Positions 1-43,864 of a DNA stretch of 64,000 bases are shown here, one piece after another. The position numbers and the translations under genes were made by a program. Numbering within the stretch: the first letter of the stretch is position 1; every line of letters starts with the position of its first letter. The DNA is taken from NCBI GenBank assembly GCA_963747225.1, contig CAVVES010000020.1:34967-98966 (forward strand). The letters are read 5' to 3'. The notes under the pieces were generated by a model that saw only the letters and a program-made list of their open reading frames with translations, had not been told where the DNA came from and made no database searches. The stretch comes from an uncultured beta proteobacterium (GTDB lineage: Bacteria > Pseudomonadota > Gammaproteobacteria > Burkholderiales > JAEUMW01).

Positions 1-51
1 CCTGCGGTCCGACCGGCGGTTTGATCAGCCGCAAGCCTACCGGGATGCGGT

Positions 52-933
52 TCATCCGACTTCGATGCCAGCCTGCCGCATCGCCTGAAGGACCGTGGAA
101 TGCGCTCCCGCTGACAAGGACACGAGTGGGAGTCGAATCCCGTCCCGAATCATCCCCATGCGATGGAGCGCCCATTTTGCGGGGATCGGGTTGGCCTCGA
201 CGAACAGGTTCCGGTGCAACCCGAACAGGCGCTGGTTGATTCCGCGCGCTTCTTCGAGCCGCCCCGCGAGCGCCGCGGCACACATGTCGTGCATCGCGCG
301 TGGCGCCACATTCGCGGTTACCGAGATCACTCCGTGTCCCCCCATCAACAGGAATGGGAGCGCCGTAGGGTCGTCACCCGTGTACAAGGCAAACTCCGCC
401 GGCGCCCGGGCGATCAGATCGGTTCCCCGCGCAAGATCGCCGGTTGCGTCTTTGATTCCCACGATTCCCGGTACTTGGGACAAGCGTATCGCGGTATCGT
501 TCGACATGTCGCAGACGGTTCGCCCCGGCACGTTGTAAAGGATCACGGGCAGGTCCACCGCCTCGGCGATGGCCTTGAAATGCCGATACAACCCTTCCTG
601 GGTGGGCTTGTTGTAGTACGGGACAACCGAAAGACTCATTGCCGCGCCTGCATCCTTCGCACAGGTGCTGAGCTCGATTGCCTCGGTCGTCGAATTCGCG
701 CCGGTCCCGGCAATGATCGGAATGCGGCCATTGGCATGCGTAACCGCTTCGCGGATCAGGAGGCAGTGCTCGTCATAGTCAACCGTGGCCGACTCGCCGG
801 TCGTCCCGACCACCACGAGGCCGTTCGATTTCTCCCGCACATGCCAGTCGATCAGCTTGCGGAAAGCATCGAGATCGAGGCTGCCGTCCTCGTGCATCGG
901 GGTGACGATCGCCACCAGACTGCCAGTCAGCAT
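52..933 (-). CDS. dapA: 4-hydroxy-tetrahydrodipicolinate synthase
   Basis: 293-aa track [16 protein letters not shown]...[14 protein letters not shown]...YNVPGRT and the length are typical of DapA. Confidence 0.93.
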
Positions 934-1024
934 GGGAATCCGTTCTGTGCGAAAACGAAAAACCGCGATTTTACCCGAAGCCTCACGCCCTGACTAAGGG
1001 CGTTCCCGCAAGCCCTTGCCAGCC

Positions 1025-1582
1025 TCAAGGCGTGCCGGGATGGGCTGGCTCGACGGCGCAGATCCGCTGGACCATGGCGGGTTTGGGATCATCAACGTAG
1101 CGATCCTCGAAGGCGATGACCCGGAGGCGGCCACGCACGAGATCCAGAAGCTCTCCCGGCTGCAGCAGGAAGTCCCGATTCGAAGGCCTGCCGAACCTTT
1201 CGTTGCCCGCCGCAAAGGTCTCGTAGAGCAGCACGCCGCTCGCATCGAGAACGTCGAGAATGGCTGGGAACAGCGGTCGCCAGAGGTAGTTGGTCACGAT
1301 TACCGCAGCGAAACGCCGCCCCGCAAAGGGCCATGGTCCGCTTTCGAGATCAGCGATCCGAGGCGTGACGCCGGACACGTCCGCCAGTTGGGCAATCGCC
1401 TCCGCGTCCCGATCCACCGCCTCGACCTGGAAGCCCAGGCGGGCCAGATGACGACTGTGACGACCGAAACCGCAGGCAAGGTCCAGAACCGTCCCTCCGA
1501 CCCGAATCAGAGGGGCGTGGCGCACGACCCACGGCGAGGGCGCGTCGATGCGATGGTCGGCGGAAGCGGACATGAGAGGCAA
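1025..1582 (-). CDS. class I SAM-dependent methyltransferase
   Basis: 185-aa ORF with SAM motif I VLDLACGFGRHS followed by the acidic loop EAVDRD. Confidence 0.75.
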   Translation of the reverse strand: MPLMSASADHRIDAPSPWVVRHAPLIRVGGTVLDLACGFGRHSRHLARLGFQVEAVDRDAEAIAQLADVSGVTPRIADLESGPWPFAGRRFAAVIVTNYLWRPLFPAILDVLDASGVLLYETFAAGNERFGRPSNRDFLLQPGELLDLVRGRLRVIAFEDRYVDDPKPAMVQRICAVEPAHPGTP

Positions 1583-1680
1583 AAGCTTAGCATCGAGCCA
1601 TCGCCCTGAGACACAGGAACGTGGCTACGCCTTTCGGCTACAATCCGCTCTCCTCCGATCGCCCGATTGATTCCCACCGA

Positions 1681-3042
1681 ATGAATCTCCACCGCCTGCT
1701 CGAGCGACGCGAAGACACGGGTGAACCGGTGCGCGTAGCGCTGATCGGCGCCGGCAAGTTCGGCGCGATGTTCCTGTCGCAGGTGCCCCGCACACCCGGG
1801 CTGCGCGTCGCCGGCATCGCCGATCTCTCCCCGGCGCGAGCGCAGGCGACCCTGGACCGGGTCGGCTGGTCCGCAGCTGCGAGCAGGCCGACTTCGATGG
1901 CCGAGGCAGTGCGGAAGGGCGTGCCTTTCGTTACGGACGACGCCCTTGCGCTCATTGCTTCGGACGATATCGATGTCGTGATCGACGCGACCGGCTCGCC
2001 GGCCGCGGGCATCCGCCACGTGCTCGCTTGCTGCGAGCACCGCAAGGACGTCGTGATGGTGAATGTGGAGGCGGACGCGCTCGCGGGTCCCCTGCTCGCA
2101 AGCCGCGCCACCGAGGCAGGCATCGTCTATTCGCTGGCGTATGGCGACCAGCCCGCACTCATTTGCGAATTGGTGGACTGGGCACGCGCAGCCGGTTTCG
2201 CGGTGACCGCGGCCGGTAAGGGCACGAAATATCTTCCCGCCTATCACGCGTCGACGCCGGACACCGTGTGGGGCCACTATGGCTTCACGCCCGAGATGGT
2301 GGCCCAGGACGACTTCAACGCGCAGATGTTCAACTCCTTCCTGGACGGTACCAAGTCGGCCCTCGAGATGGCTGCGGTGGCCAACGCAACCGGCCTTACC
2401 CCTGCGCCCGGAGGACTCTCGTTTCCTCCCTGCGGGGTGGACGATCTGCCGCGGGTACTCCGTCCCGCTTCCGCGGGCGGGCAGCTTCACCATGCGGGTC
2501 AGGTCGAGGTGGTTTCGAGCGTCGAGCGCGACGGTCGCCCCGTGTTCCGCGATCTGCGATGGGGCGTGTACGTCACGTTTTCCGCCGACAGCGAATATGT
2601 GCGCCGGTGCTTCAAGGAGTATGGTCTCGTCACCGACGACGGCGGCAACTACTCCGCCATGTACAAGCCCTATCACCTGATCGGGCTCGAGCTCGGCATC
2701 AGCGTCGCCTCGGTCGCGCTGCGACGCGAACCTACCGGATGCGCGACAGGCTTCCGCGGCGACGTGGTCGCCACCGCGAAGCGGGACCTGGCCGGGGGCG
2801 AGATGCTGGACGGGGAAGGCGGCTACACGGTTTACGGCAGACTGACGCCGGCGCGCGAATCGCTCGCCCTCGGCGCGCTGCCCCTGGGTCTTGCCAGCGG
2901 TGCGAAGCTGAAGCACTCCATTGCCGCCGGTGAGCCGGTCCTGTGGAGCGACGTGAACGTCGTCGACAGCGATGTCGTCCGCTTTCGCCGCGAGATGGAA
3001 ACAAGCTTCGTCGGCGAGCTGGGATTGCCGCCCGCTGCTTAG
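1681..3042 (+). CDS. NAD(P)-binding oxidoreductase, homoserine-dehydrogenase-like with SAF-type C-terminus (COG4091-like)
   Basis: Track ORF 1621..3042. The Rossmann motif VALIGAGKFGAMF lies shortly after the Met at 1681, which is my preferred start. The family call is from memory. Confidence 0.65.
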   Translation: MNLHRLLERREDTGEPVRVALIGAGKFGAMFLSQVPRTPGLRVAGIADLSPARAQATLDRVGWSAAASRPTSMAEAVRKGVPFVTDDALALIASDDIDVVIDATGSPAAGIRHVLACCEHRKDVVMVNVEADALAGPLLASRATEAGIVYSLAYGDQPALICELVDWARAAGFAVTAAGKGTKYLPAYHASTPDTVWGHYGFTPEMVAQDDFNAQMFNSFLDGTKSALEMAAVANATGLTPAPGGLSFPPCGVDDLPRVLRPASAGGQLHHAGQVEVVSSVERDGRPVFRDLRWGVYVTFSADSEYVRRCFKEYGLVTDDGGNYSAMYKPYHLIGLELGISVASVALRREPTGCATGFRGDVVATAKRDLAGGEMLDGEGGYTVYGRLTPARESLALGALPLGLASGAKLKHSIAAGEPVLWSDVNVVDSDVVRFRREMETSFVGELGLPPAA

Positions 3043-3097
3043 GATCACGATCGGTTGATTGCCAGCGATGCCGCTCCCATTAACCCAAGAGGAAACC

Positions 3098-3649
3098 ATG
3101 ACGGAGAAGATTCTGTTCAAGGCCGGCGAGGCCACGGTATTCGCGAAAGAAGGCCAATTCACGGACGCCATGCCGGAGATTCTGATCGGCGACGTGAGCG
3201 GTCCGGTCGGGCAGGCGTTCGCCAACATGATGGCGCAGAGTGCCGGTCACACGTGCATGTTCGCCGTGCGCGCGTGCAATTACATGGTGCGTCCACCGAC
3301 CATGCTGGCGACCAAGGTGACCATCAAGGACTCGGCCTACGTCAATCTGATGGGCAGCGTGGTGCAGTCGGCGACGGCGGACGCGATCGTCGATTGCGTG
3401 AGCGAGGGCATCATTCCGCGGGATCAGGTAAACCAGCTCTGCATAATTTCGCTGATCTGGATCGATCCGCGCGCGCCGAAGGACCCGAATCTGGATACCG
3501 AAGACATGTACCGCACCAACTACGAGGCGACCAAGCTCGCGATCCGGCGCGCGCTCAATGATGAGCCGGACATCGACGAGCTCATCAGGACGCGCAAGAC
3601 CGTGAAGCACGACATGTTCGATCAGGACACCGGCAAGTGGCTGCTCTAG
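3098..3649 (+). CDS. formaldehyde-activating enzyme (Fae) family protein, divergent
   Basis: Track ORF 3059..3649. The start is refined to the ATG at 3098, preceded by AAGAGGAAACC. It aligns end to end with Fae as I remember it (..SEGIIP.., ..NYEATKLAIRRALNDEP..). Confidence 0.75.
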   Translation: MTEKILFKAGEATVFAKEGQFTDAMPEILIGDVSGPVGQAFANMMAQSAGHTCMFAVRACNYMVRPPTMLATKVTIKDSAYVNLMGSVVQSATADAIVDCVSEGIIPRDQVNQLCIISLIWIDPRAPKDPNLDTEDMYRTNYEATKLAIRRALNDEPDIDELIRTRKTVKHDMFDQDTGKWLL

Positions 3650-3674
3650 CAGTCGCGCCGGGAGGAGAAGACCG

Positions 3675-4157
3675 ATGGCGCTGAATGCATATCTGAAGAT
3701 CAAGGGCGAGGCGCAGGGCGACATCAAGGGCTCTGCCACGGCGAAGGGTCGCGAGGGACGCATCGTGGTGATCGCCTGCTCCCACGACATCCTGACGCCC
3801 CACGACGCGGCGAGCGGCGAGGCCACCGGCAAGCGACAGCATCACCCGCTGCTCATCACCAAGGAACTCGACAAGAGCTCCGTTCCGTTGCGCCTTGCGC
3901 TGGTGGCAAACGAGACCCTGACGCTCTGGGATATGCAGTTCTGGCGCGCGATGACCCGCGGCAGCGAGAAGCAGCATTTCACCGTCCGCCTCGTAAATGC
4001 ACGGGTCGCGAGCATCCATTTCGAGCTTCCGAATACGCGCAGCCCGGATACGTCGAAGCTTCCCGAGCTGGAGCAGGTCGCATTCACCTACGAGAAGATC
4101 GAATGGATCTGGACCGACGGACTGGTCGCAGAGGACGAGTGGAACGCCGGGACATAG
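3675..4157 (+). CDS. hcp: Hcp/TssD family protein (type VI secretion tube fold), orphan
   Basis: 160-aa ORF with SD GGAGGAG upstream. MALNAYLKIKGEAQGDIKGS, GKRQHHPLLITKELDKSSVPL and FTYEKIEWIW match the Hcp family layout. Confidence 0.82.
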   Translation: MALNAYLKIKGEAQGDIKGSATAKGREGRIVVIACSHDILTPHDAASGEATGKRQHHPLLITKELDKSSVPLRLALVANETLTLWDMQFWRAMTRGSEKQHFTVRLVNARVASIHFELPNTRSPDTSKLPELEQVAFTYEKIEWIWTDGLVAEDEWNAGT

Positions 4158-4161
4158 AGTC

Positions 4162-4177
4162 GACCGCCGCGGCGGTC
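4162..4177 (+). terminator. GC-rich perfect palindrome just after hcp; possible terminator hairpin
   Basis: GACCGCCGCGGCGGTC lies 5 nt after the hcp stop and is followed by TGTCTCT. The T-tract is weak. Confidence 0.35.
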
Positions 4178-4234
4178 TGTCTCTATGGATAGAGCGCGCG
4201 TGCACTGCGCGCCTCGACGAGCCTGCCTGCCGTT

Positions 4235-5077
4235 TTGCCTCAATCACGAATCTTGACCGCGGTTCTCGCCCTCATCGCGCTCCTCGCGGCCGCGTTCTTC
4301 GGGCTGCGCTGGTACGAGCAGAAGGCGGTGTATTACCCGACGCGGGATATCGTCCGCACACCACAGGACGCCGGACTGCGATTCGAGGAAGTCACCCTCG
4401 ACACCTCCGACGGCGAAGTGATTCACGGCTGGTGGGTACCATCCGGGCGAGCCGATGCACCGGTGATCCTTTTCTTTCACGGCAACGGCGGGAATGTCTC
4501 CCATCGTATCGAGAAGCTCGCGGTATTCCACGCGATCGGCGCGGACACGCTCGCTATCGACTATCGTGGCTATGGCAAGAGCTCCGGAACGCCGAGTGAG
4601 GACGGCATCTATCGTGACGCCCTGGCTGCATACCGCTGGCTCACCGCGACGCGGTCGGTTGCACCGGAACGCATCGTCGTCTATGGCGAATCCCTCGGCG
4701 CCGCAGTGACTGTGCATCTTGCATCCGAAGTGCCGACTGGAGGAGTGATCGTGGAAAGCGGCTTCACGTCGGTGCTCGACATTGCGCGCAAGCGGCTCCC
4801 CTTTCTGCCGGTGCGCTGGATTCTCAAACACAAGTTCAATTCGATCGACAAGGTCCATCGGATCGACGCGCCTCTTCTCATTCTCCACAGCCGCGAGGAC
4901 GAGCTGTTCGAAATGTCGCATCCCGAGCGCCTGCTCGCCGCGGCGCAGTCGCCAAAGCAGCTCGTCGAATTGCAGGGCGGCCACAACGACGCGTTCCTGG
5001 TGAGCGCGGACGTTTATCGCGAGGCGCTCGCGAAATTCCTCGCGGAAATCCGCACAGCAGCACGGCCTGTGAAATAA
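4235..5077 (+). CDS. alpha/beta hydrolase with N-terminal membrane anchor
   Basis: 280-aa ORF with an N-terminal TM helix (ILTAVLALIALLAAAFFGL), HGNGGN, and the nucleophile elbow GESLGAA. Confidence 0.8.
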   Translation: MPQSRILTAVLALIALLAAAFFGLRWYEQKAVYYPTRDIVRTPQDAGLRFEEVTLDTSDGEVIHGWWVPSGRADAPVILFFHGNGGNVSHRIEKLAVFHAIGADTLAIDYRGYGKSSGTPSEDGIYRDALAAYRWLTATRSVAPERIVVYGESLGAAVTVHLASEVPTGGVIVESGFTSVLDIARKRLPFLPVRWILKHKFNSIDKVHRIDAPLLILHSREDELFEMSHPERLLAAAQSPKQLVELQGGHNDAFLVSADVYREALAKFLAEIRTAARPVK

Positions 5078-5089
5078 AAGGAGTTTTCC

Positions 5090-5410
5090 ATGATCATCAC
5101 CACTACCCCGACCATCGAAGGCCGGCTCATCAACGACTATCTCGGGATCGTCTCGGGCGAAGCGATCGTCGGCGCGAACGTCGTTCGTGATCTTTTCGCG
5201 CGCGTGCGCGACATCGTCGGCGGTCGCGCGGGCTCGTACGAGCACACGCTGGCGAACGCCCGCAAGATCGCCATCGAAGAGATGACCGAGACGGCGCGCA
5301 AGCTCGGTGCGACCGCTGTCGTCGGCGTGGACCTCGACTACGAGGTGCTCGGAGCGGACAACGGAATGCTGATGGTCACCGCATGCGGAACCGCGGTGGT
5401 GCTGGGTTAG
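5090..5410 (+). CDS. ybjQ: YbjQ/UPF0145 family protein
   Basis: 106-aa [34 protein letters not shown]...[18 protein letters not shown] is characteristic of YbjQ. Confidence 0.85.
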
Positions 5411-6532: not shown

Positions 6533-6797
6533 CCGATACTCCGCCGGCAGCGCCCCGTGGAAGCACCAGGGGCACTCCGGAAACCTGCAAGCACGAGGTT
6601 CTCCTGCAATATATTGAACCCGATTCCCTGCGCCAATCAGGGGCCAGAATCAGGCCGGCGGTCGTTCTAGGGGCACCGGCGGAAGACCGCGGCGGGGCCG
6701 GGGAGTTCTCCGGCGACCTCGACACTCGATGAGTTTTCCGGTTGACGCGTGAGAAGAACGAATGTACAAGTCCGTCGAACAACGCTTCGGAGTCTTC

Positions 6798-7511
6798 ATG
6801 GACCGCCGCAAGTTCGTACGGATCTGCGCCGGTTCCGTGGCATTCAGCGCGCTTCAGCGCAACGTGCTGGCGGCCGCGGACGATCAGGTGCGTCGCTACC
6901 AGCGGGTGCTTCTCACGGACCGGGAGGCACGGCCGCTGAAGGCGAAACTCCTCCTCACCGACCGGAATTACCTCTTTCACTACCCCTACGTGGGCACCCC
7001 CTGCTTCCTGCTCAATCTGGGCAAGCCGATCGAGCGGGACGTGGCGCTCAAGGCGGACGACGGCCGCGATTACCACTGGCACGGCGGCGTCGGTCCGAAG
7101 CGGGCGATCGTGAGCTACTCGGCGATCTGCGCCCACAAGCTCGCGTATCCCACCCGGCAACTCTCTTTCATCAGCTACCGGGGCGGCAACATTCCCGGGG
7201 AGAGCCGCGCCACTCCGAACATGATCCATTGCTGTGCCGAGCACAGCGAGTACGATCCCGCCGCCGGCGCGAAGGTGGTTGGAGGTCCGGCGAAGCAACC
7301 GCTCGCGACCATCCTGCTCGACTACGACGCCTCCCGGGACGAACTGTATGCAACAGGCACGCTCGGTGGCGAGCTGTTCGACGAGTTCTTCGCGAAGTAC
7401 GACTTCAAACTGTCGATGGAGCATGGCGCCAACCATGCGAAGCAGCCAGTCAGCGGCACCGCCGTAGTGACGGAACTAACGCAGTTCTGCCAGCAGGAAA
7501 TCCGCTGCTGA
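6798..7511 (+). CDS. Tat-exported Rieske [2Fe-2S] domain protein
   Basis: Track ORF 6762..7511. Twin-arginine motif MDRRKFVRICAGSVAF (Met at 6798). Rieske ligand boxes are CAH (SAICAHKL) and CAEH (IHCCAEHSEYD). Confidence 0.72.
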   Translation: MDRRKFVRICAGSVAFSALQRNVLAAADDQVRRYQRVLLTDREARPLKAKLLLTDRNYLFHYPYVGTPCFLLNLGKPIERDVALKADDGRDYHWHGGVGPKRAIVSYSAICAHKLAYPTRQLSFISYRGGNIPGESRATPNMIHCCAEHSEYDPAAGAKVVGGPAKQPLATILLDYDASRDELYATGTLGGELFDEFFAKYDFKLSMEHGANHAKQPVSGTAVVTELTQFCQQEIRC

Positions 7512-26153: not shown

Positions 26154-29100
26154 TCAACGGCCGTTTTCCAGCGTCTCGATCAGGAAGAGGATTTCGGCGG
26201 CCATCGTGTAGTCCAAATCCGGGGCGTCGGCGAGGGTGCGGTCGCGGCTGCCGGCGACGATGGCTTGGAGGGCTTGGATGAAGGGGTGGACGCCACGCGG
26301 CGTCGGGATCGGCGGCGAGTTGCTGGAGGAGGGACGCAGCGGCGGCCGGGTCGCCGGCGAGCAGGGCTTGGGTCACGGCGAGGCAGATGCGGCCATCGGC
26401 GGTGTGGTTCTCGCCGCCGTCGCGGCGGTAGGCGAGGTAGCAGGCGATGGCCTTGCGCTTCGCCTCCGCGGCGGCGGCGGGGTTGCCGGCGTCCGTCTCG
26501 ATGTCGGCGAGGATGGCCCAGGTCTTCCACGGCTCAGACGCGTGGCCGAACTGCGCTTTGCATTCGATCGCCCGGCGGATTTCCTGCCGCGCTTCGTCGA
26601 GGCGGCGGAGCTTGCGCAGGGTGTTGGCGAGATTGTTCCTCGCGCGCCCTTCGTTCGCCACATCGCCGATCTCGACATACTTGTCCGCGGCTTGCCGGTA
26701 GAAGGCCACGGCTTCCTCCGGGCGGTCGAGGACATCGTCATACAAGTTCCCCAGTTGCACTGAGCGTGCTCGCCTGCCCGGCGACATTTCCGAGCCGCAC
26801 CTTGATCGCGAGCGATTTCCGGTAGGCATCCTCCGCCGCTTCCGGCTGTCCCGCCTCCTGATACACCATGCCGGTCTGATGCCAGATCACGGCGACGGTG
26901 CCCGGTTCGTCCAACTGCGTGAACCGCTCGCGCGCTTCGGCATACGCCGCCAGCGCCTCCGGGTAGCGGCGCTGCTCCATGCGGACGGTCCCAAGCTGGC
27001 CTTTGCCGACGGCGACCTCCCGGTCGTCACCGAGTTGCTCGGCGCGGCGGATGCTCTCTTCGTAGGCCGCCGCCGCTTCGTCGAGCCGACCCAGGTCGCG
27101 AAGACAGTCGCCTCGTTCCGCGAAGCAGACGGACGCCATCCCTTCCGCAGCTTTGCTGGCTCGCTCCTTCGCGACGGCCTCGAAGCGCTGGCGGGCCTCG
27201 TCCAGCAGCGGCAAGGCCTGTTCCGAGCCGCCGGCCGTCTTCAACACGCGGGCCAGCAGGCAGCAAGCCATCGCCAGATCGTAATCGGCGTCGGGATACG
27301 CCTGCTCGCCCGCCGCCCGGGCGCGCTGGAGCAACTGCTGCGCGCCGTCCAACGCCTCGCGCAACCGCCCGCCGGCAAGCTGCTGCTCGATGCGGGTCCG
27401 CGCCGCCTCGAACCGCGCGTGATTCCAGGCGTCGCCCAGCGCCGCCGCCGCGGCGTCGCGCACCTGCCCCACGCGCTCCAGCAGCCGCGGCTTGCCGAGC
27501 GAATTGCAGCAGGCTGTAGAGCGAAGTGGCCAGATCGATCGTCGCCTCCGCATCCCCCGCGCGCTGCACGAGGTCGAGCAGCGCAAAGAGGTTCGGCAGC
27601 TCCAGCACCGTCAGCGTCGCCGCGAGTTCGGCGTTCTGGCTCTGCTGCTGCTCGAGGAACCCGACATACCCGCGCATCGCCTCGACCCAGCGGGCCGTCA
27701 GCGCCTCGCGCTCCGCCGCGTCCATCCGCCCGCGCAGGTAGGGGCAGAGCGCGGGATTGAGCGTGAGATGGTTGTAGCGGTTCGGCGTCGCCAGCCCCGT
27801 CTCGATCAACTCGCCCGCCAGCGAGGCCACGTCCGCCTCTTCCCACTCCATCATCACGCGGAGCACGTCCAGATCGACCCCGCCGTGAAACACCCCGAGC
27901 ACGCGCGCCCTGTCCCGGTTCGCGGGCGACATGCGGCGCAGCGAAAGCTCGACGCTGGCGAAGACCGATTGCTCCCGGCTGCCGGGGAACTTCCGCTCCA
28001 TCTCCGCCATCAGCTCGACGAGCGATTCGCGGGTCGCCTCGACGCCGCGGCTGCGCAGCGCCGGGGCCAGCAGCGCCAGCGTGCGGGCGTGGCCGTGGAC
28101 GGCATCCACGAGCTGCTCGATCTCCTCGCGCGCGGCATCGGCGGCGGCGCCGGCGTCCGCCGCCGTCGGCGTTCAGCACGCGCTCGACCAGCTTCACCGC
28201 GTCCTCGCGGTCGAGCCGGTGCAGCTCGCGCCGGTGCCGCTCGGCATCGAACGGCGCGGGCAGCGCCTCGCGGCTGGTGAAGACGAGCCGCGTGTCGCCC
28301 TTCGCATGCAGCCGCGCGCAGAGCTGCGAGGATGGCGTCCAGCTCGCGGCGCGCCTCCTCGGAGAGCGCCTCCGGCGTCTCGCACGATAGGGCGGCAGGA
28401 GGATGCTCTCCATGTTGTCCACCACCAGCAGCGTGGACTGCTCGGCAGCGCGCGCTCGACGGGCAGGATGGCCTTTTCCAGATCGTCGAACGTGGCGACG
28501 GAGTAATCCGTCGCACGAGCTGGCGGCCGATGGCATCGAGCACCGCGGCGGCGTTGCTGTGCGTCTCGACGGAGACGAACGCGGCGCGGCGCATCTGCTG
28601 CGAGCGGACCATCCAGCGCGCAAACTCGGCGGCGAGCGCGGTCTTGCCTTCGCCGCCCTGGCCGCGCACCACGGCGTAGCGCTCGTGGCGCAGCAGCCGC
28701 TGCAGCGCGAGCAGCTCGCGGCTGCGGCCGATGAAGCCGGTCTCCGGCTCCGGCGGCAGTTCGCCGAGGCGCGCCGCGAGCGCGGTCTTGCAAGTCCTCC
28801 TGCGTCTGCTGCGCGGGCGTGGTGCGGAAGAGCTGCGGGTCGTCCTTTTCCTGGAAGAGCACGGGCACGAACCAATCCTCCAGCCGCAGCTCGCCCGCGC
28901 CGAAGATGCGGCCGCGGAAGGTGTCGTCCTTGAGCTGGCGCTGGCCTGCGAGCATGGCATCGCCCACGCGCTGCGCCGCGGGCCAGCGCGTCGTAGAACG
29001 CCTCGACGAAGCGGCGCGCGGTCTCGACCAGCACGCTGTGGCTCATGGCCACGACCGAGGCCACGCCGACCTTCAGCAGCTCGGAGGCGACGGACTCGGA

Positions 29101-30543
29101 CGCCTTCTCGGCCTGCGCGGTCTGGCAGGCTTCGAGGAAGACGAGCGGGATGCGGTGATCGCGCAGCAGCGGGCCGAGTTCGCTGGTGAAGACGGTGACG
29201 TGCCGGCGCTGGTCGAGCTTGCCGATGTCCTGCGGGTCCTCGAAGCACAGCCCGCCGAGGCCGACGCGTGCGGTCATAGACGCCGTGGCCGTCGAAGTGG
29301 ACGACGTGATAGGGCTCGCGCTCGCGCGCGGGCGCGGTCGAGCTCCTCGCGCAGGGCCGGCAGCGTGGGCGGGCTGAGGACGTGGATGCTGCACCAGGCC
29401 GCCGAGCGTCTTCCATCGCCTCGACCAGCGGCAGCGCGCTCGCGCGGTGGTCGATGTAGCCGCACGCGTCGTCCTCCGGCCGCGCGGTGACGAGCAGGAT
29501 GCGGATGGGCGTGGCGACCACCGGCACGTCGAGCACTCGCGTGTTCGGCAGGCGGCGGCGGACGCGCGTGGGCTTCGCGCCCTGGAACAGGTAGCCGTCG
29601 CCGTCGTGGAGCAGTTCCCACGGCAGGCCGAGCAGGAGCGTGGCGGCTTCGCGGGCGGTCGTCGACCTCGGCCTCGGCGGCGCCGGCTTCGAGCGACGCA
29701 TCGACGTGGACGGAGAAACGGCGCCCGGCGTGGTCGTCGATCCGCGCCCAGGCGTTCATGACGTTCGCCGTGTGGGCGACGGGCATCGCGGCCTCGTGCA
29801 GGAGCCGCCCCCACTTCACGAGGTTCTCCTCGACCTTGCGCGCGCGGTCCCGGAAGTAGTCGCTCGGCCAGATGGCGTACTTCTCCAGGTACCAGCGCAG
29901 CTCCTCGGCCTCGATCGGACCGATGGGAGCGATGAAGCGCCAGCTCTGCGCGCTGGCGACTTCGCGCTGCCCCGGCGTGGCCGGCTCGTAGACGAGCCGG
30001 GCGCGAGCCGAGGCGCGGCGCACGCCGTCCTGCTCGTGGAACTTGAAGTCGGTGAGTTCGAGCACGAGCTCTTCCAGCGGCTCGGCCTTGGGCTGCGGCG
30101 TGGGAGCAACATCGGCGGGGAGCGCGTTTGCCCAGGGCGACGAGGATCGCATTCATCGCCGCTTCGACGCCGCCCGCGTCGCTGCTCACCGGGATGTAGA
30201 TCGGCTCCTCGCCGAAGAACTCTTCGAGCACGCCGAGCTTCGTGCCGTTCGAGCGAGAGCGGGATGACCGGGAACTTGTCCTTGCCGCGCTGCTTCTGCA
30301 CCTCGAGCGCGTGGCGCAGTTCCTTGCCGACCCACTTCGACTGCAACGACATCCGGGCTGACGACGACGGCGTAGGCCGACGCTTCCTCGATGGCTTTCT
30401 GGATCTCCGGCCAGAGCGGATCGCCGCCGCGCAGCTCGCGCGAATCGATCCAGCCGTCCTGCCCGTGATCGGCGAGCGCCGCGCGGAGATCGCGCACGAA
30501 CGCGTCGTCCTGTCGAGCTGTGGGAGATGAAGAGTCTGGTCAT
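26154..30543 (-). pseudogene. TIR - CHAT protease - STAND/P-loop NTPase - TPR protein (~1,460 codons), reading frame broken ~18 times
   Basis: Stitched from track ORFs 27241..30543, 30186..30497, 29816..30580, 29274..30152, 28010..29701, 28194..28967, 27027..28109, 26738..27586 and 26116..26829, plus an unlisted tail ending ..ILFLIETLENGR* at 26154. Motifs: FISHSS / SKWVGKEL (TIR), LGLPWELL, HFDGHG, FLEACQT (CHAT), GQGGEGKT and LLVVDNME (P-loop), and multiple TPR units. Confidence 0.75.
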
Positions 30544-41808: not shown

Positions 41809-42355
41809 ATGCAAGACCGAAGGCAGCAGATCATCGAAGCCGGCCTCGCCACGCTACGCGAATACGGCTTCACCGGACTCACCCAGCCGCGAGTGGCAGC
41901 GCGCGCGGGCCTCCGTCAAAGCCATCTGACCTACTACTTTCCGACCCGCGTCGATCTCTTGACCGCCGCAGCTCGCTCGGCCATCGACCGTCAACTTGCG
42001 GCGGTGGACCTCGTGCTGAAGGGAAACGCATCCCAGGCTGCCGACGCGATCGCAAAAGTCGCCGTCCGTCACGAGAACACGCGGGTGATGATGGCTCTCG
42101 CCCAGGCAGCCGACGAGGAGCCCGCGTTGCGAGAGCTGTTCCGTGAGTTGGCCGACGGAATCGTGGCACGCTCGAACACCTTCCTGAAGACTCTGAACGG
42201 CGCGTCAACCGAGGAACACGCCCGTCTCCTTCACGCGCTCTCGGTCGGGCTTGCAGTCGTCGATCTCGCGAACGTCGCGGCCCGACAGCGCCAAGTGCTC
42301 CGCGGCCGTCCTTGCCACCGCTCTCAAGCTCATCGCATCCTCGAAGAAGCGCTGA
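41809..42355 (+). pseudogene. TetR/AcrR family regulator with an apparent frameshift near the C-terminus
   Basis: N-terminal HTH GFTGLTQPRVAARAGLRQSHLTYYF. After ..GLAVVDLA (~42275) a plausible C-terminus (SRPDSAKCSAAVLATALKLIASSKKR*) continues in another frame. In the track frame the ORF instead runs on into the next gene. Confidence 0.6.
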
Positions 42356-42396
42356 GGATCGTACTATTCACCACGACTTTTTCGGAGAAACGCGAA

Positions 42397-43864
42397 ATGA
42401 CAAACCCGGTACTCATCGTCGGCGCGGGCCCTGTCGGCCTTACCGTGGCCAGCGAGCTGGCGCGCTTCGGAGTAGCCGTCCGCATCGTCGACAAGGCAGC
42501 GCAGCGCACTGACAAATCCAAGGCTCTGGTGCTGTGGAGCCGAACCCTTGAACTGCTCGATCGCGGTGAAGGTTCCGCGCCATTCATCGACGCGGGTTCA
42601 AGGCACATGGGGTGAACTTCGTCGCCGGCGGCGGAAAGCTGATCGGGCACGTCGACATGGACGGCGTGCAAAGTCCCTACCCCTACGCGCTGATGCTTCC
42701 GCAGTCCGATACCGAGAGATTGCTCGAGGAACGGCTGAACAAGCTGGGTGTCGTGGTCGAGCGCCAAGTCGAGGTCGTCCGCTTCACGCATGGCGAAGCC
42801 GGCGTCAAAGCGCTGCTTCGTCACCACGACGGAGGCGAGGAGAACGTCTCGGCCGACTGGCTCCTGGGGTGCGATGGCGCGCACAGCATCGTTCGCAACA
42901 GCCTTGGTGTGAACTCGCCGGCGAGACCCTGGATAGTGACTGGATGCTGGCGGATGTCCACATGCGCGGCTATCCGTTCCCGGACAGCGAAACGTCCGTC
43001 TATTGGCACGAGGACGGTGTCTTCGTAATCTTCCCGATCTCGCCTGGTCGCTATCGCGTGGTCGCCAACCTGCCGTCGATTGAGGGCGAGCATCCCCCGG
43101 CGCCCACGCTGGAGCAGGCACAGGCGATCATCGATCGCAGAGGTCCTCCGGGTCTCACCGCTTTCGACCCGATCTGGCTTGCGGGCTTCCGCATCAACGA
43201 CCGCAAGGTCGCGAACTATCGCCACGGCCGCGTCTTTCTCCTCGGCGACGCCGCGCACATTCACAGCCCCGCAGGCGGACAGGGCATGAACACCGGCATG
43301 CAGGACGCCTTCAATCTTGCGTGGAAGCTGGCGCTGGTCATTCGCGGGGCGTGTGGGGATCGCCTGCTCGAGAGCTACAGCGCCGAACGCAGCAAGGTCG
43401 GCGACGAAGTGCTCAAACAGGCTGGCAGGCTGACGGCAATGGGCACGCTGAGGAGCCCTGTGGGGCAGAGCATCCGCAATTTCCTGGGTCACTTGCTGTT
43501 CGGCCTTGCACCCGTTCAGCACGCGTTCGCGGATTCGATGACGGAGGTCGCAATCGGCTATCCGGAGAGCCCGTTGAACGGCCCCGGCGTGCACGGAACG
43601 GGACCGAAACCGGGCGAGCGCGTCGTCCCCGTCAGCGGTCAGTCTCCGATCGGATCGGGCAGCACGCCGCGCTTCGCGCTATTCGCGGAGCGCAATGCAG
43701 CGATCGCCGATCTGCGCAAGCGGTTCGACAGGCTCCTCGAACACGACATCAGGCCGCCACTGCGTGAGGGATTTATCTGGCTCGTCAGACCCGATGGTTA
43801 CGCAGTGTGTTCTGCGAGCGATCCAGCAACGATCGCCGACTATCTGCACGGGCTCGCCAGTTGA
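42397..43864 (+). pseudogene. FAD-dependent aromatic-ring monooxygenase (PheA/TfdB-like), two frameshifts
   Basis: MTNPVLIVGAGPVGLTVASELARFGVAVRIVDK (GxGxxG), with frame changes at ~42605 and ~42905. Then ..GRVFLLGDAAHIHSPAGGQGMNTGMQDAFNLAWKLA. Stitched from ORFs 41809..42615, 42612..43028 and 42548..43864. Confidence 0.8.

What the first reader, a model, noticed from the sequence alone, without database searches (positions are those of the whole stretch)
1681..4177. Apparent operon joining a SAF-domain dehydrogenase, an Fae-like protein and an orphan Hcp, with no T6SS or H4MPT genes nearby
Three same-strand genes are tightly spaced. The gaps are 3042 to 3098 and 3649 to 3675. The last two genes have their own Shine-Dalgarno sequences, and the unit is closed by a 16-nt perfect palindrome at 4162-4177.

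Gene 2 aligns along its whole length with formaldehyde-activating enzyme as I remember it (SEGIIP, NYEATKLAIRRALNDEP). However, the N-terminal segment that reads ..VAHIDLIIGP.. in canonical Fae is ..DAMPEILIGDVSGP.. here. That suggests a divergent paralogue with possibly different chemistry.

Gene 3 is a full-length Hcp/TssD-fold protein. None of the following occurs anywhere in the 64 kb:
- T6SS genes: tssBC, vgrG, PAAR, clpV.
- H4MPT genes: mtdB, mch, fhc.

Pairing an oligomeric Fae-fold enzyme with a ring-forming Hcp behind an NAD(P) dehydrogenase is not explained by either parent pathway. Hcp could be acting as a chaperone or scaffold, or the Fae-like protein could be Hcp cargo. The downstream membrane-anchored alpha/beta hydrolase (4235-5077) may or may not belong to the unit.
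Basis: partly seen in the sequence, partly recalled or inferred. Interest (0 to 1): 0.6.

Follow-up and report, generated by a model that had tools for sequence, protein, structure and literature searches.

The report
Lineage-specific Fae2, Hcp, oxidoreductase gene neighbours
Three tightly spaced genes (a DXR-II-like oxidoreductase, a Fae2-type formaldehyde-activating-enzyme paralogue and a lone type VI secretion tube protein) are really there, but they sit together only in one small group of uncultured Burkholderiales, some of which have lost one or two of them, so this looks like chance neighbours rather than a new system.

Summary
Profile searches confirm three same-strand genes: 1681-3042 (DRL/SAF oxidoreductase), 3098-3649 (Fae family) and 3675-4157 (Hcp/TssD). 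The gaps are 55 and 25 nt, and the perfect 16-nt palindrome is at 4162-4177. About 55 further ORFs scanned in the 64 kb contain no T6SS or H4MPT gene.

The proposed functional coupling is not supported.
- **Gene 2** is the already-known Fae2 paralogue. It is 65.5% identical to the only Fae homologue on the M. aquaticum plasmid that carries fae2, and about 35% identical to canonical Fae. In 54 of 80 species genomes it lies directly after fhcB-A-D-C. None of the 80 has the oxidoreductase nearby, and only one, from the same clade, has Hcp.
- **Gene 3**: its nearest outside relatives (52-62% identity) sit next to T6SS core genes in 17 of 30 contigs of at least 5 kb, and never next to Fae.
- **Gene 1**: its 77%-identical homologues lie in unrelated contexts.

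Within the one uncultured Burkholderiales clade that has the trio:
- the oxidoreductase is a pseudogene in one species;
- it is deleted in another;
- both it and Fae2 are absent in a third, where hcp remains under purifying selection.

Best reading: a lineage-specific, possibly co-transcribed juxtaposition of independent genes. Interest is low.

The parts
1025..1582 (-). SAM-dependent methyltransferase, transcribed divergently. It marks the upstream boundary and is not part of the trio.
   Evidence: Pfam Methyltransf_25 and TehB. Conserved next to dapA in relatives L001, L002 and L095.
1583..1680 (.). 98-nt divergent intergenic region. It is the only obvious place for a promoter serving genes 1-3 (inferred).
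   Evidence: Sequence. The sigma-70 scan found no site here.
1681..3042 (+). Gene 1: an NAD(P)-binding oxidoreductase of the DRL/DXR-II-like family, with Rossmann, DRL_cat and SAF domains. It is probably the uncharacterised DLO type rather than a true DXR-II.
   Evidence: Pfam. Brucella DRL 3upl at E=2e-57, with Thr229 and His250 both aligned to Ser (residue roles from PMC3847144). 77%-identical homologues lie in unrelated contexts. dN/dS 0.17.
3085..3093 (+). Shine-Dalgarno-like AAGAGGAAA before gene 2.
   Evidence: Read from the sequence.
3098..3649 (+). Gene 2: a Fae2-type paralogue of formaldehyde-activating enzyme.
   Evidence: PF08714 2e-56 and TIGR03126 above its cutoff. About 35% identity to Fae 1y5y. 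65.5% identity to the single Fae homologue on plasmid pMaq22A_1p, where fae2 is located (PMC7356819). Orthologues follow fhcBADC in 54 of 80 genomes. dN/dS 0.05-0.2.
3659..3666 (+). Shine-Dalgarno-like GGGAGGAG before gene 3.
   Evidence: Read from the sequence.
3675..4157 (+). Gene 3: a full-length Hcp/TssD type VI secretion tube protein, orphan within this window.
   Evidence: PF05638 and TIGR03344. PDB Hcp chains to 8e-27. Relatives at 52-62% identity lie in T6SS core clusters. dN/dS about 0.15.
4153..4187 (+). GC-rich hairpin whose core is the 16-nt palindrome at 4162-4177. It overlaps the hcp stop codon and has no U-tract. A terminator or stabiliser role is inferred only.
   Evidence: 85-nt fold -40.1 kcal/mol, z -2.2. 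The terminator scan did not call it. It is conserved only in a near-identical strain.
4235..5077 (+). Membrane-anchored alpha/beta hydrolase. It is a neighbour, not part of the trio.
   Evidence: Generic Hydrolase_4 and Abhydrolase hits. It travels with YbjQ. In L093 a 963-aa SIR2-TPR gene separates it from hcp. In L096, L090 and L095 its place is taken by phaE-phaC.
5090..5410 (+). YbjQ-family protein, paired with the hydrolase. Not part of the trio.
   Evidence: PF01906 1e-37. Synteny with the hydrolase in L001-L003 and L092-L093.

Best explanation
The trio is a lineage-specific juxtaposition of three functionally independent chromosomal genes in an uncultured Burkholderiales bacterium.

**Gene 1** is a DXR-II-like (DLO-type) NAD(P) oxidoreductase with an unknown substrate.

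**Gene 2** is Fae2, a conserved paralogue of formaldehyde-activating enzyme. In most Burkholderiales it belongs to the tetrahydromethanopterin (H4MPT) C1 gene island, in the order fhcB-A-D-C, fae2, pabB-like. Here it has been separated from that island. It most likely still serves H4MPT-linked formaldehyde handling, using pathway genes encoded elsewhere in the genome (inferred).

**Gene 3** is an ordinary T6SS tube subunit encoded away from its apparatus genes, as is common for hcp. It most likely feeds a T6SS encoded elsewhere (inferred).

The short gaps and the lack of an internal terminator make co-transcription from the 1583-1680 region plausible (inferred, not shown). Co-expression here would be an accident of gene order at a rearrangement-prone spot, not a shared pathway.
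For: 1. **Each gene has its own usual context outside the clade.**
   - The other 26 loci share no recurring partner.
   - Hcp relatives at 52-62% identity have TssA/B/C/E/F/G/K/L/M within 8 kb in 17 of 30 contigs of at least 5 kb.
   - Oxidoreductase homologues at 77% identity are flanked by unrelated genes.
2. **There is no cross-linkage.** 0 of 80 Fae2 loci have DRL, and 1 of 80 has Hcp (L016, same clade). 0 of 30 Hcp contigs have Fae or DRL.
3. **The trio erodes within the clade**.
   - L096 keeps DRL-Fae2-Hcp.
   - In L093 DRL is broken into six out-of-frame pieces, while the flanking genes of 1056 and 963 aa are intact. An independent contig, L094, also shows a frameshift.
   - L090 has Fae2-Hcp only.
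   - L095 has Hcp only.
4. **Selection.** All three genes are under purifying selection where intact, and hcp remains so where Fae2 is gone (omega 0.05-0.2).
5. **A precedent for a displaced fae2.** Fae2 encoded away from the H4MPT island, in a genome that has the full pathway, is documented in Methyloversatilis universalis FAM5 (PMC5023235). A MAG of that species carries a 77%-identical orthologue with no fhc genes within 6 kb (L010).
6. **Composition.** GC of the trio region (0.644) matches the window (0.648), so there is no sign of recent import.
Against: - Fae2 and hcp stay adjacent, 24-51 nt apart, in at least five distinct clade members even though the flanks differ on both sides. Upstream is a methyltransferase or an RND pump. 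Downstream is the hydrolase, SIR2-TPR or phaEC. This could reflect selection for linkage rather than shared descent.
- I could not examine the rest of the genome. The presence of a T6SS and of an H4MPT pathway elsewhere is assumed, not shown.
- The function of Fae2 itself is unknown. Mutants show little or no phenotype (PMC5023235, PMC7356819).
Confidence: 0.75

Rival explanations
1. One reading: the genes form a real functional module in this clade. Hcp would act as a ring-shaped chaperone or scaffold for the Fae2 oligomer, or the 20-kDa Fae2 would be Hcp-borne cargo. The oxidoreductase would supply a redox step.
For: - Tight spacing, a shared strand and no internal terminator.
- The fae2-hcp pair persists across clade members with different flanks.
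- Fae2 is in the size range of known Hcp-lumen substrates (my own knowledge, not tested).
Against: - The pairing is confined to one narrow clade.
- hcp is retained under purifying selection after Fae2 was lost in L095.
- The oxidoreductase was deleted or inactivated at least twice.
- Fae2 here is 77-80% identical to orthologues that have no Hcp partner, and omega stays at 0.07-0.21 in every comparison. There is no sign of a shift in function.
- No immunity-like gene is present.
- No paper was found that links the two families.
Confidence: 0.05
2. hcp is a true orphan in a genome without any T6SS and has taken on another role that needs neither Fae2 nor the oxidoreductase.
For: - No T6SS gene in 64 kb, nor in the 12-16 kb around hcp in relatives L090, L093, L095 and L096.
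- The clade's Hcp proteins form a tight group (68-99% identical to the window's). Identity drops sharply to about 60% for all other Hcps.
- omega of about 0.15 shows the protein is in use.
Against: - 13 of 30 related hcp genes also lack T6SS genes within 8 kb. One of them lies about 7 kb from tssA/B/C. Local absence therefore says little.
- Full-length conservation with bona fide tube proteins: 61 invariant columns across clade and T6SS-linked members.
Confidence: 0.12
3. The oxidoreductase and Fae2 form a two-gene metabolic pair, for example aldehyde or C1 oxidation, with hcp as a bystander.
For: - The two genes are adjacent and on the same strand in the window, L096 and, ancestrally, L093.
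- An aldehyde dehydrogenase lies 0.3-3 kb upstream of both oxidoreductase homologues examined. This hints at aldehyde-related chemistry.
Against: - 0 of 80 Fae2 loci have the oxidoreductase.
- The oxidoreductase homologues examined have no Fae nearby.
- The oxidoreductase is the first gene lost within the clade, while Fae2 stays intact.
Confidence: 0.04

Closest known systems
Fae2, the second paralogue of formaldehyde-activating enzyme in methylotrophs and Burkholderiales
   Same: - 65.5% identity to the single Fae homologue on the M. aquaticum plasmid that carries fae2 (PMC7356819).
- 70-80% identity to orthologues in Methylococcaceae, Methyloversatilis, Thauera, Variovorax and Rubrivivax.
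- Shares the subfamily's invariant TDAMPE and GHT..M.A.RACN motifs.
- Carries the Fae Pfam and TIGRFAM signatures.
   Different: - It is not next to fhcBADC and the pabB-like gene, as it is in 54 of 80 genomes.
- Instead it lies between an oxidoreductase and hcp.
Canonical Fae (Fae1) of Methylorubrum extorquens, PDB 1Y5Y and 1Y60
   Same: - Same family over nearly the full length (E=1e-19, residues 24-172).
- Same fold in a low-confidence model (TM 0.61-0.66).
- Conserved EGIIP and NYEATKL..RA segments.
   Different: - Only about 35% identity.
- 'AHIDLIIG' is replaced by 'AMPEILIG' (His to Met, Asp to Glu).
- A 5-residue insertion near 'DPNLD' and a longer C-terminus.
- Catalytic equivalence is untested.
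T6SS tube protein Hcp/TssD encoded as an orphan gene
   Same: - Full-length Hcp by HMM.
- Matches solved Hcp chains, with E. coli EAEC Hcp1 (4hkh) at 8e-27.
- Same fold in the model.
- 57-62% identity to Hcps that sit between tssC and tssE.
   Different: - No T6SS gene within the 64 kb.
- Whether the genome has a T6SS is unknown.
DXR-II (DRL) of Brucella and the related DLO1 and DLO2 oxidoreductases
   Same: - Same three-domain architecture.
- Aligned end to end with 3upl (E=2e-57).
- Gly121 is conserved.
   Different: - Thr229 and His250, conserved in DXR-II, are both Ser here. Ser at position 229 is reported for DLO2 (PMC3847144).
- It is therefore probably not a DXP reductoisomerase.

Membership tests
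Fae family (PF08714 / TIGR03126) | Profile match above the curated threshold over the whole domain | tested here: met
   PF08714: 190.6 bits against a cutoff of 27, profile positions 2-158 of 159. TIGR03126: 137.5 bits against 118.05.
Fae family (PF08714 / TIGR03126) | Fae fold | tested here: met
   The AF2 model is low-confidence (pLDDT 55.7). Its only significant PDB matches are 1Y60 and 1Y5Y, with TM 0.55-0.66.
Fae family (PF08714 / TIGR03126) | The His in the N-terminal 'AHIDLIIG' segment of canonical Fae. Its catalytic or cofactor-proximal role is recalled from memory and was not verified here. | tested here: not met
   It aligns to Met in 'AMPEILIG'. Met is invariant in 13 subfamily members.
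Fae family (PF08714 / TIGR03126) | Genomic association with H4MPT-pathway genes | tested here: inconclusive
   None in this window. Orthologues follow fhcBADC in 54 of 80 genomes. The rest of this genome could not be examined.
Fae family (PF08714 / TIGR03126) | Catalyses condensation of formaldehyde with H4MPT | not testable with these tools
   Needs an enzyme assay. Published fae2 mutants show little or no phenotype (PMC5023235, PMC7356819).
Fae2 subfamily | Closer to a genetically named Fae2 than to Fae1 | tested here: met
   65.5% identity to the only Fae-like locus on pMaq22A_1p. That plasmid carries fae2, Maq22A_1p31155 (PMC7356819). Identity to Fae1 is about 35%. The plasmid record has no annotation in the collection, so the locus tag itself was not seen.
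Hcp/TssD | Profile match above the curated threshold, full length | tested here: met
   PF05638: 97.3 bits against 23.5. TIGR03344: 129.6 bits against 58.9, residues 1-157.
Hcp/TssD | Hcp beta-barrel fold | tested here: met
   The model (pLDDT 62.8) matches 66 PDB chains at E<=0.001. Almost all of the 50 listed are Hcp or Hcp fusions, and the top matches are all Hcp with TM about 0.6. Sequence matches to 7 solved Hcps.
Hcp/TssD | Encoded in or near a T6SS core cluster | tested here: not met
   No T6SS family in the 64 kb. In contrast, 17 of 30 related contigs have core genes within 8 kb.
Hcp/TssD | A T6SS elsewhere in the genome; hexameric rings; secretion | not testable with these tools
DXR-II (DRL) | Architecture of Rossmann, DRL catalytic and SAF domains | tested here: met
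DXR-II (DRL) | The family-diagnostic residues Thr229 and His250 (PMC3847144) | tested here: not met
   Both align to Ser (Ser226 and Ser247 of the window protein) in the 3upl alignment.
DXR-II (DRL) | DXP reductoisomerase activity | not testable with these tools
   Needs complementation or an enzyme assay.
Conserved operon / functional gene module | The genes co-occur as neighbours in independent lineages | tested here: not met
   The arrangement occurs only in one clade of uncultured Burkholderiales.
Conserved operon / functional gene module | All members are retained together where the module occurs | tested here: not met
   The DRL gene is a pseudogene in L093 and L094. L090 has no DRL. L095 has neither DRL nor Fae2.
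Conserved operon / functional gene module | Co-transcription | not testable with these tools
   No expression data are available. Only the short gaps and the absence of a predicted terminator bear on it.

The most novel reading that the evidence does not exclude
In this uncultured Burkholderiales clade, Fae2 and Hcp may have become a working pair. Hcp could be a ring-shaped carrier or chaperone of the 20-kDa Fae2. Alternatively, Hcp could be kept for a non-T6SS role in genomes that lack the apparatus. Either would explain why fae2-hcp stays adjacent while both flanks change.
Probability: 0.04. Interest if true: 0.6.

Novelty: new member of a known kind. Interest (0 to 1): 0.15.

Why it matters
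As it stands, it matters little. Each gene is an ordinary member of a described family, and the adjacency carries no evidence of shared function.

Two minor points of value:
- The survey shows that Fae2, whose role is still unknown, is physically tied to fhcBADC and a pabB-like gene in most Burkholderiales. That keeps it within H4MPT biology rather than pointing to new chemistry.
- The clade gives a small natural experiment in which fae2 and hcp survive without the oxidoreductase, and hcp survives without fae2.

If complete genomes showed neither a T6SS nor H4MPT genes, the retained and selected fae2-hcp pair would become interesting.

Tried and rejected
- **Alpha/beta hydrolase (4235-5077) as a Tle-like T6SS effector or fourth member.** Rejected. 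It has only generic hydrolase hits. It travels with YbjQ, not with hcp. In other clade members a SIR2-TPR gene separates it from hcp, or phaEC takes its place.
- **Defence-system reading.** PADLOC gives no hit for any of the three genes.
- **Palindrome as an intrinsic terminator.** The scan did not call it, it has no U-tract, and its z-score is only -2.2. It is conserved only in a near-identical strain.
- **Recent horizontal import of the trio.** GC and GC3 match the window, and there are no tRNA genes in the window.
- **A second, canonical Fae close to Fae2.** None found in any of the 96 loci then held or in the window.
- **A recurring partner of stand-alone Fae2.** None found. The top 'clusters' were antisense ORF artefacts.
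- **Literature.** No paper links Hcp and Fae. The 2005 gene-island paper that I recall as defining Fae2 and Fae3 is not held in the library. I found no accessible text on Fae active-site residues, so the significance of the His-to-Met change rests on memory.
- **Structure models.** They were built from shallow alignments and are low-confidence (pLDDT 56 and 63). I used them only as fold checks.
- **T6SS or H4MPT genes elsewhere in this genome.** I could not test this.
Full report
**Observation**

Gene 1 runs from 1681 to 3042 (453 aa), gene 2 from 3098 to 3649 (183 aa), and gene 3 from 3675 to 4157 (160 aa). All are on the + strand, with gaps of 55 and 25 nt.

Profile searches confirm the families.
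- Gene 1: DRL_cat (3e-58), SAF, and a Rossmann domain.
- Gene 2: Fae PF08714 (2e-56). It also passes NCBI's TIGR03126 threshold (137.5 against 118 bits).
- Gene 3: T6SS_HCP (1e-27) and TIGR03344 (1e-37).

The quoted peptide motifs are present. Purine-rich Shine-Dalgarno-like strings precede genes 2 and 3. The 16-nt palindrome at 4162-4177 is perfect.

Two caveats apply.
- Gene 1 could start at GTG 1621, but homologue lengths of 444-465 aa favour 1681.
- The palindrome is the core of a longer hairpin (4153-4187) that overlaps the stop codon. It lacks a U-tract, the terminator scan did not call it, and it is conserved only in a near-identical strain.

**The rest of the window**

I scanned about 55 further ORFs with Pfam. 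They encode ordinary chromosomal functions:
- dapA, hemN and a Crp-type regulator;
- the cbb3 oxidase cluster with ccoG, ccoH and ccoI, and the ccm genes;
- pyrD, aat and ate;
- thrC, hom and nadC;
- an ECF sigma and anti-sigma pair.

No T6SS or H4MPT family appears. A tblastn with nine T6SS core proteins taken from a related locus finds nothing. NCBI labels the near-identical proteins as coming from uncultured Burkholderiales MAGs.

**Gene 2 is Fae2, a known paralogue**

It is about 35% identical to structurally characterised Fae (1Y5Y). The His of 'AHIDLIIG' is replaced by Met in 'AMPEILIG'. This is not an isolated divergent copy.
- The protein database holds at least 1,298 homologues (E<=1e-5). 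The 120 best are 69-100% identical and, where named, come from Methylococcaceae, Burkholderiales or Rhizobium.
- The TDAMPE motif is invariant in 13 aligned members.
- At least 571 species genomes encode a relative.
- It is 65.5% identical to the single Fae-like locus on plasmid pMaq22A_1p of Methylobacterium aquaticum 22A. That replicon carries the genetically studied fae2 gene Maq22A_1p31155, while fae1 is chromosomal (PMC7356819).

Fae2 is reported in all nine Methylophilaceae genomes compared in PMC4109929. Its mutants show little or no phenotype (PMC5023235, PMC7356819).

**Usual context of Fae2**

In the 80 best genome loci, 54 have Fae2 downstream of fhcB-fhcA-fhcD-fhcC, the formyltransferase/hydrolase complex. 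Pfam confirms FTR and FTR_C, GXGXG and amidohydrolase neighbours. The FhcC ORF ends a median of 48 nt before Fae2. Most of these loci are followed by a chorismate-binding, pabB-like gene.

The other 26 loci carry Fae2 as a stand-alone gene with no recurring partner. They include the closest non-clade relatives.

None of the 80 loci has the oxidoreductase within 6 kb. Only L016, which is 90% identical and belongs to the same clade, has Hcp. Fae2 is therefore explained by the H4MPT parent pathway.

A displaced fae2 in a genome with a complete H4MPT island elsewhere is documented for Methyloversatilis universalis FAM5 (PMC5023235). A MAG of that species carries a 77%-identical orthologue without nearby fhc genes (L010).

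**Gene 3 is an ordinary tube protein**

It matches seven solved Hcps (best 4hkh, 8e-27). Its homologues fall into two groups: a small clade at 68-99% identity, then a broad family at about 52-62% found in many phyla.

One member at 60% identity lies between tssC and tssE inside a full core cluster. Another lies about 7 kb from tssA, tssB and tssC. Of 30 related contigs of at least 5 kb, 17 carry T6SS core genes within 8 kb and none carries Fae or the oxidoreductase. An orphan position is therefore common in this Hcp family and says little about whether a T6SS is absent.

**Gene 1**

It aligns end to end with Brucella DRL (3upl, 2e-57). Two residues reported as diagnostic of true DXR-II, Thr229 and His250, are both Ser here (PMC3847144). 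This points to the uncharacterised DLO type.

Homologues at 75-77% identity are abundant in Burkholderiales MAGs and in Pelomicrobium. In the two contexts I examined they have unrelated neighbours, with no Fae and no Hcp.

**The clade that has the trio**

Contigs from related uncultured Burkholderiales show one variable region.

| Locus | Arrangement |
|---|---|
| Window | methyltransferase(-) / DRL-Fae2-Hcp / hydrolase-YbjQ |
| L096 | RND pump / DRL-Fae2-Hcp / phaE-phaC |
| L093 | RND pump / DRL pseudogene-Fae2-Hcp / SIR2-TPR / hydrolase-YbjQ |
| L090 | RND pump / Fae2-Hcp / phaEC (no room for DRL) |
| L095 | methyltransferase(-) / RND pump / Hcp / phaEC (neither DRL nor Fae2) |

In L093 the DRL gene is in six out-of-frame pieces with residues 54-102 missing, yet the neighbouring genes of 1056 and 963 aa are intact. 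An independent contig, L094, also shows a frameshift.

By synonymous distance, L095 nests among Fae2-bearing members (dS 0.44-0.48 to L090 and L016). Fae2 was therefore lost there.

Where intact, all three genes are under purifying selection: omega 0.05-0.21 for Fae2, 0.06-0.19 for Hcp and 0.17 for DRL. Hcp in the Fae2-less genome is included.

The trio is thus ancestral to one clade and is being dismantled, oxidoreductase first. That is not how an obligate module behaves. GC content gives no hint of recent import.

**Most likely mechanism**

Shown:
- the family identities;
- the Fae2 orthology;
- the usual contexts of each family;
- the clade-restricted and eroding adjacency;
- purifying selection.

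Inferred:
- Fae2 works with H4MPT genes elsewhere in the genome.
- Hcp feeds a T6SS elsewhere.
- The three genes may share a transcript from the 1583-1680 divergent region, because the gaps are short and no terminator is predicted.

I put 0.75 on 'independent genes, accidental neighbours'.

The main residual argument for coupling is that fae2 and hcp stay adjacent while both flanks change. In a 1-kb segment this is equally expected from shared descent.

**Comparison and novelty**

The closest known entities are Fae2, orphan Hcp genes, and the DLO relatives of DXR-II. Each gene is a new member of a known kind. No paper in the searchable library links Hcp and Fae, and the data here give no reason to.

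The structural models were low-confidence (pLDDT 56 and 63) and served only as fold checks. Their only strong PDB matches were Fae and Hcp respectively.

**Limits**

I could not inspect the rest of the genome, so 'T6SS and H4MPT elsewhere' is an assumption. I had no transcription data. I could not verify from the literature what the canonical His does, so I make no claim about altered chemistry beyond noting that the substitution is fixed in the whole Fae2 subfamily.

**Verdict**

The functional interpretation is not supported. Interest is 0.15.

Noticed in passing
window 41809-43861 (+): An FAD-dependent monooxygenase (PF01494) is split over three reading frames. Profile positions 3-56, 82-172 and 175-348 fall in separate ORFs. 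The first piece is fused to a TetR-like N-terminus. This is either a pseudogene or frameshift errors in the assembly.
   Followed up: no
window 26741-30543 (-): A 282-aa TPR protein and an 1100-aa protein with a CHAT (caspase-like) domain lie in a segment of raised GC (0.69-0.73 against 0.65). PADLOC matches only the TPR repeats.
   Followed up: partly
L093 8559-11447: In a sister species, a 963-aa SIR2_2-TPR protein is inserted between hcp and the hydrolase-YbjQ pair. It has weak PADLOC hits to SIR2-type defence proteins such as PDC-S65, SIR2-PNTD and ThsA. The spot is a variable insertion site.
   Followed up: partly
L093 5991-7345 and L094 1-1045: The DRL-like oxidoreductase is a pseudogene in this species. 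L093 has six out-of-frame fragments between intact neighbours, and an independent contig also shows a frameshift.
   Followed up: yes
L019-L086 (54 of 80 loci), e.g. L028 5097-6525: Fae2 is the gene immediately after fhcB-A-D-C and before a chorismate-binding, pabB-like gene in most Burkholderiales and Thauera genomes. In 16 loci a methyl-accepting chemotaxis protein lies a median of about 2.5 kb downstream.
   Followed up: partly
L181 5250-6710 and L183 2640-4070: An aldehyde dehydrogenase lies 0.3-3 kb upstream of both 77%-identical homologues of the oxidoreductase that I examined. This may hint at the substrate class.
   Followed up: no
window 6762-7511 (+): A 249-aa protein has no Pfam hit. 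Its N-terminus looks like a twin-arginine signal (DRRKFV), and it has Cys/His pairs (CAHK, CCAEH) reminiscent of a Rieske centre. I read this from the translation only. The gene is conserved in position in L001.
   Followed up: no
window 1-5410 compared with L095 and L096: The CusCBA-like RND efflux operon and phaE-phaC flank the trio in relatives. Both are absent from the whole 64-kb window (tblastn). This strain has therefore lost or moved both flanks.
   Followed up: partly
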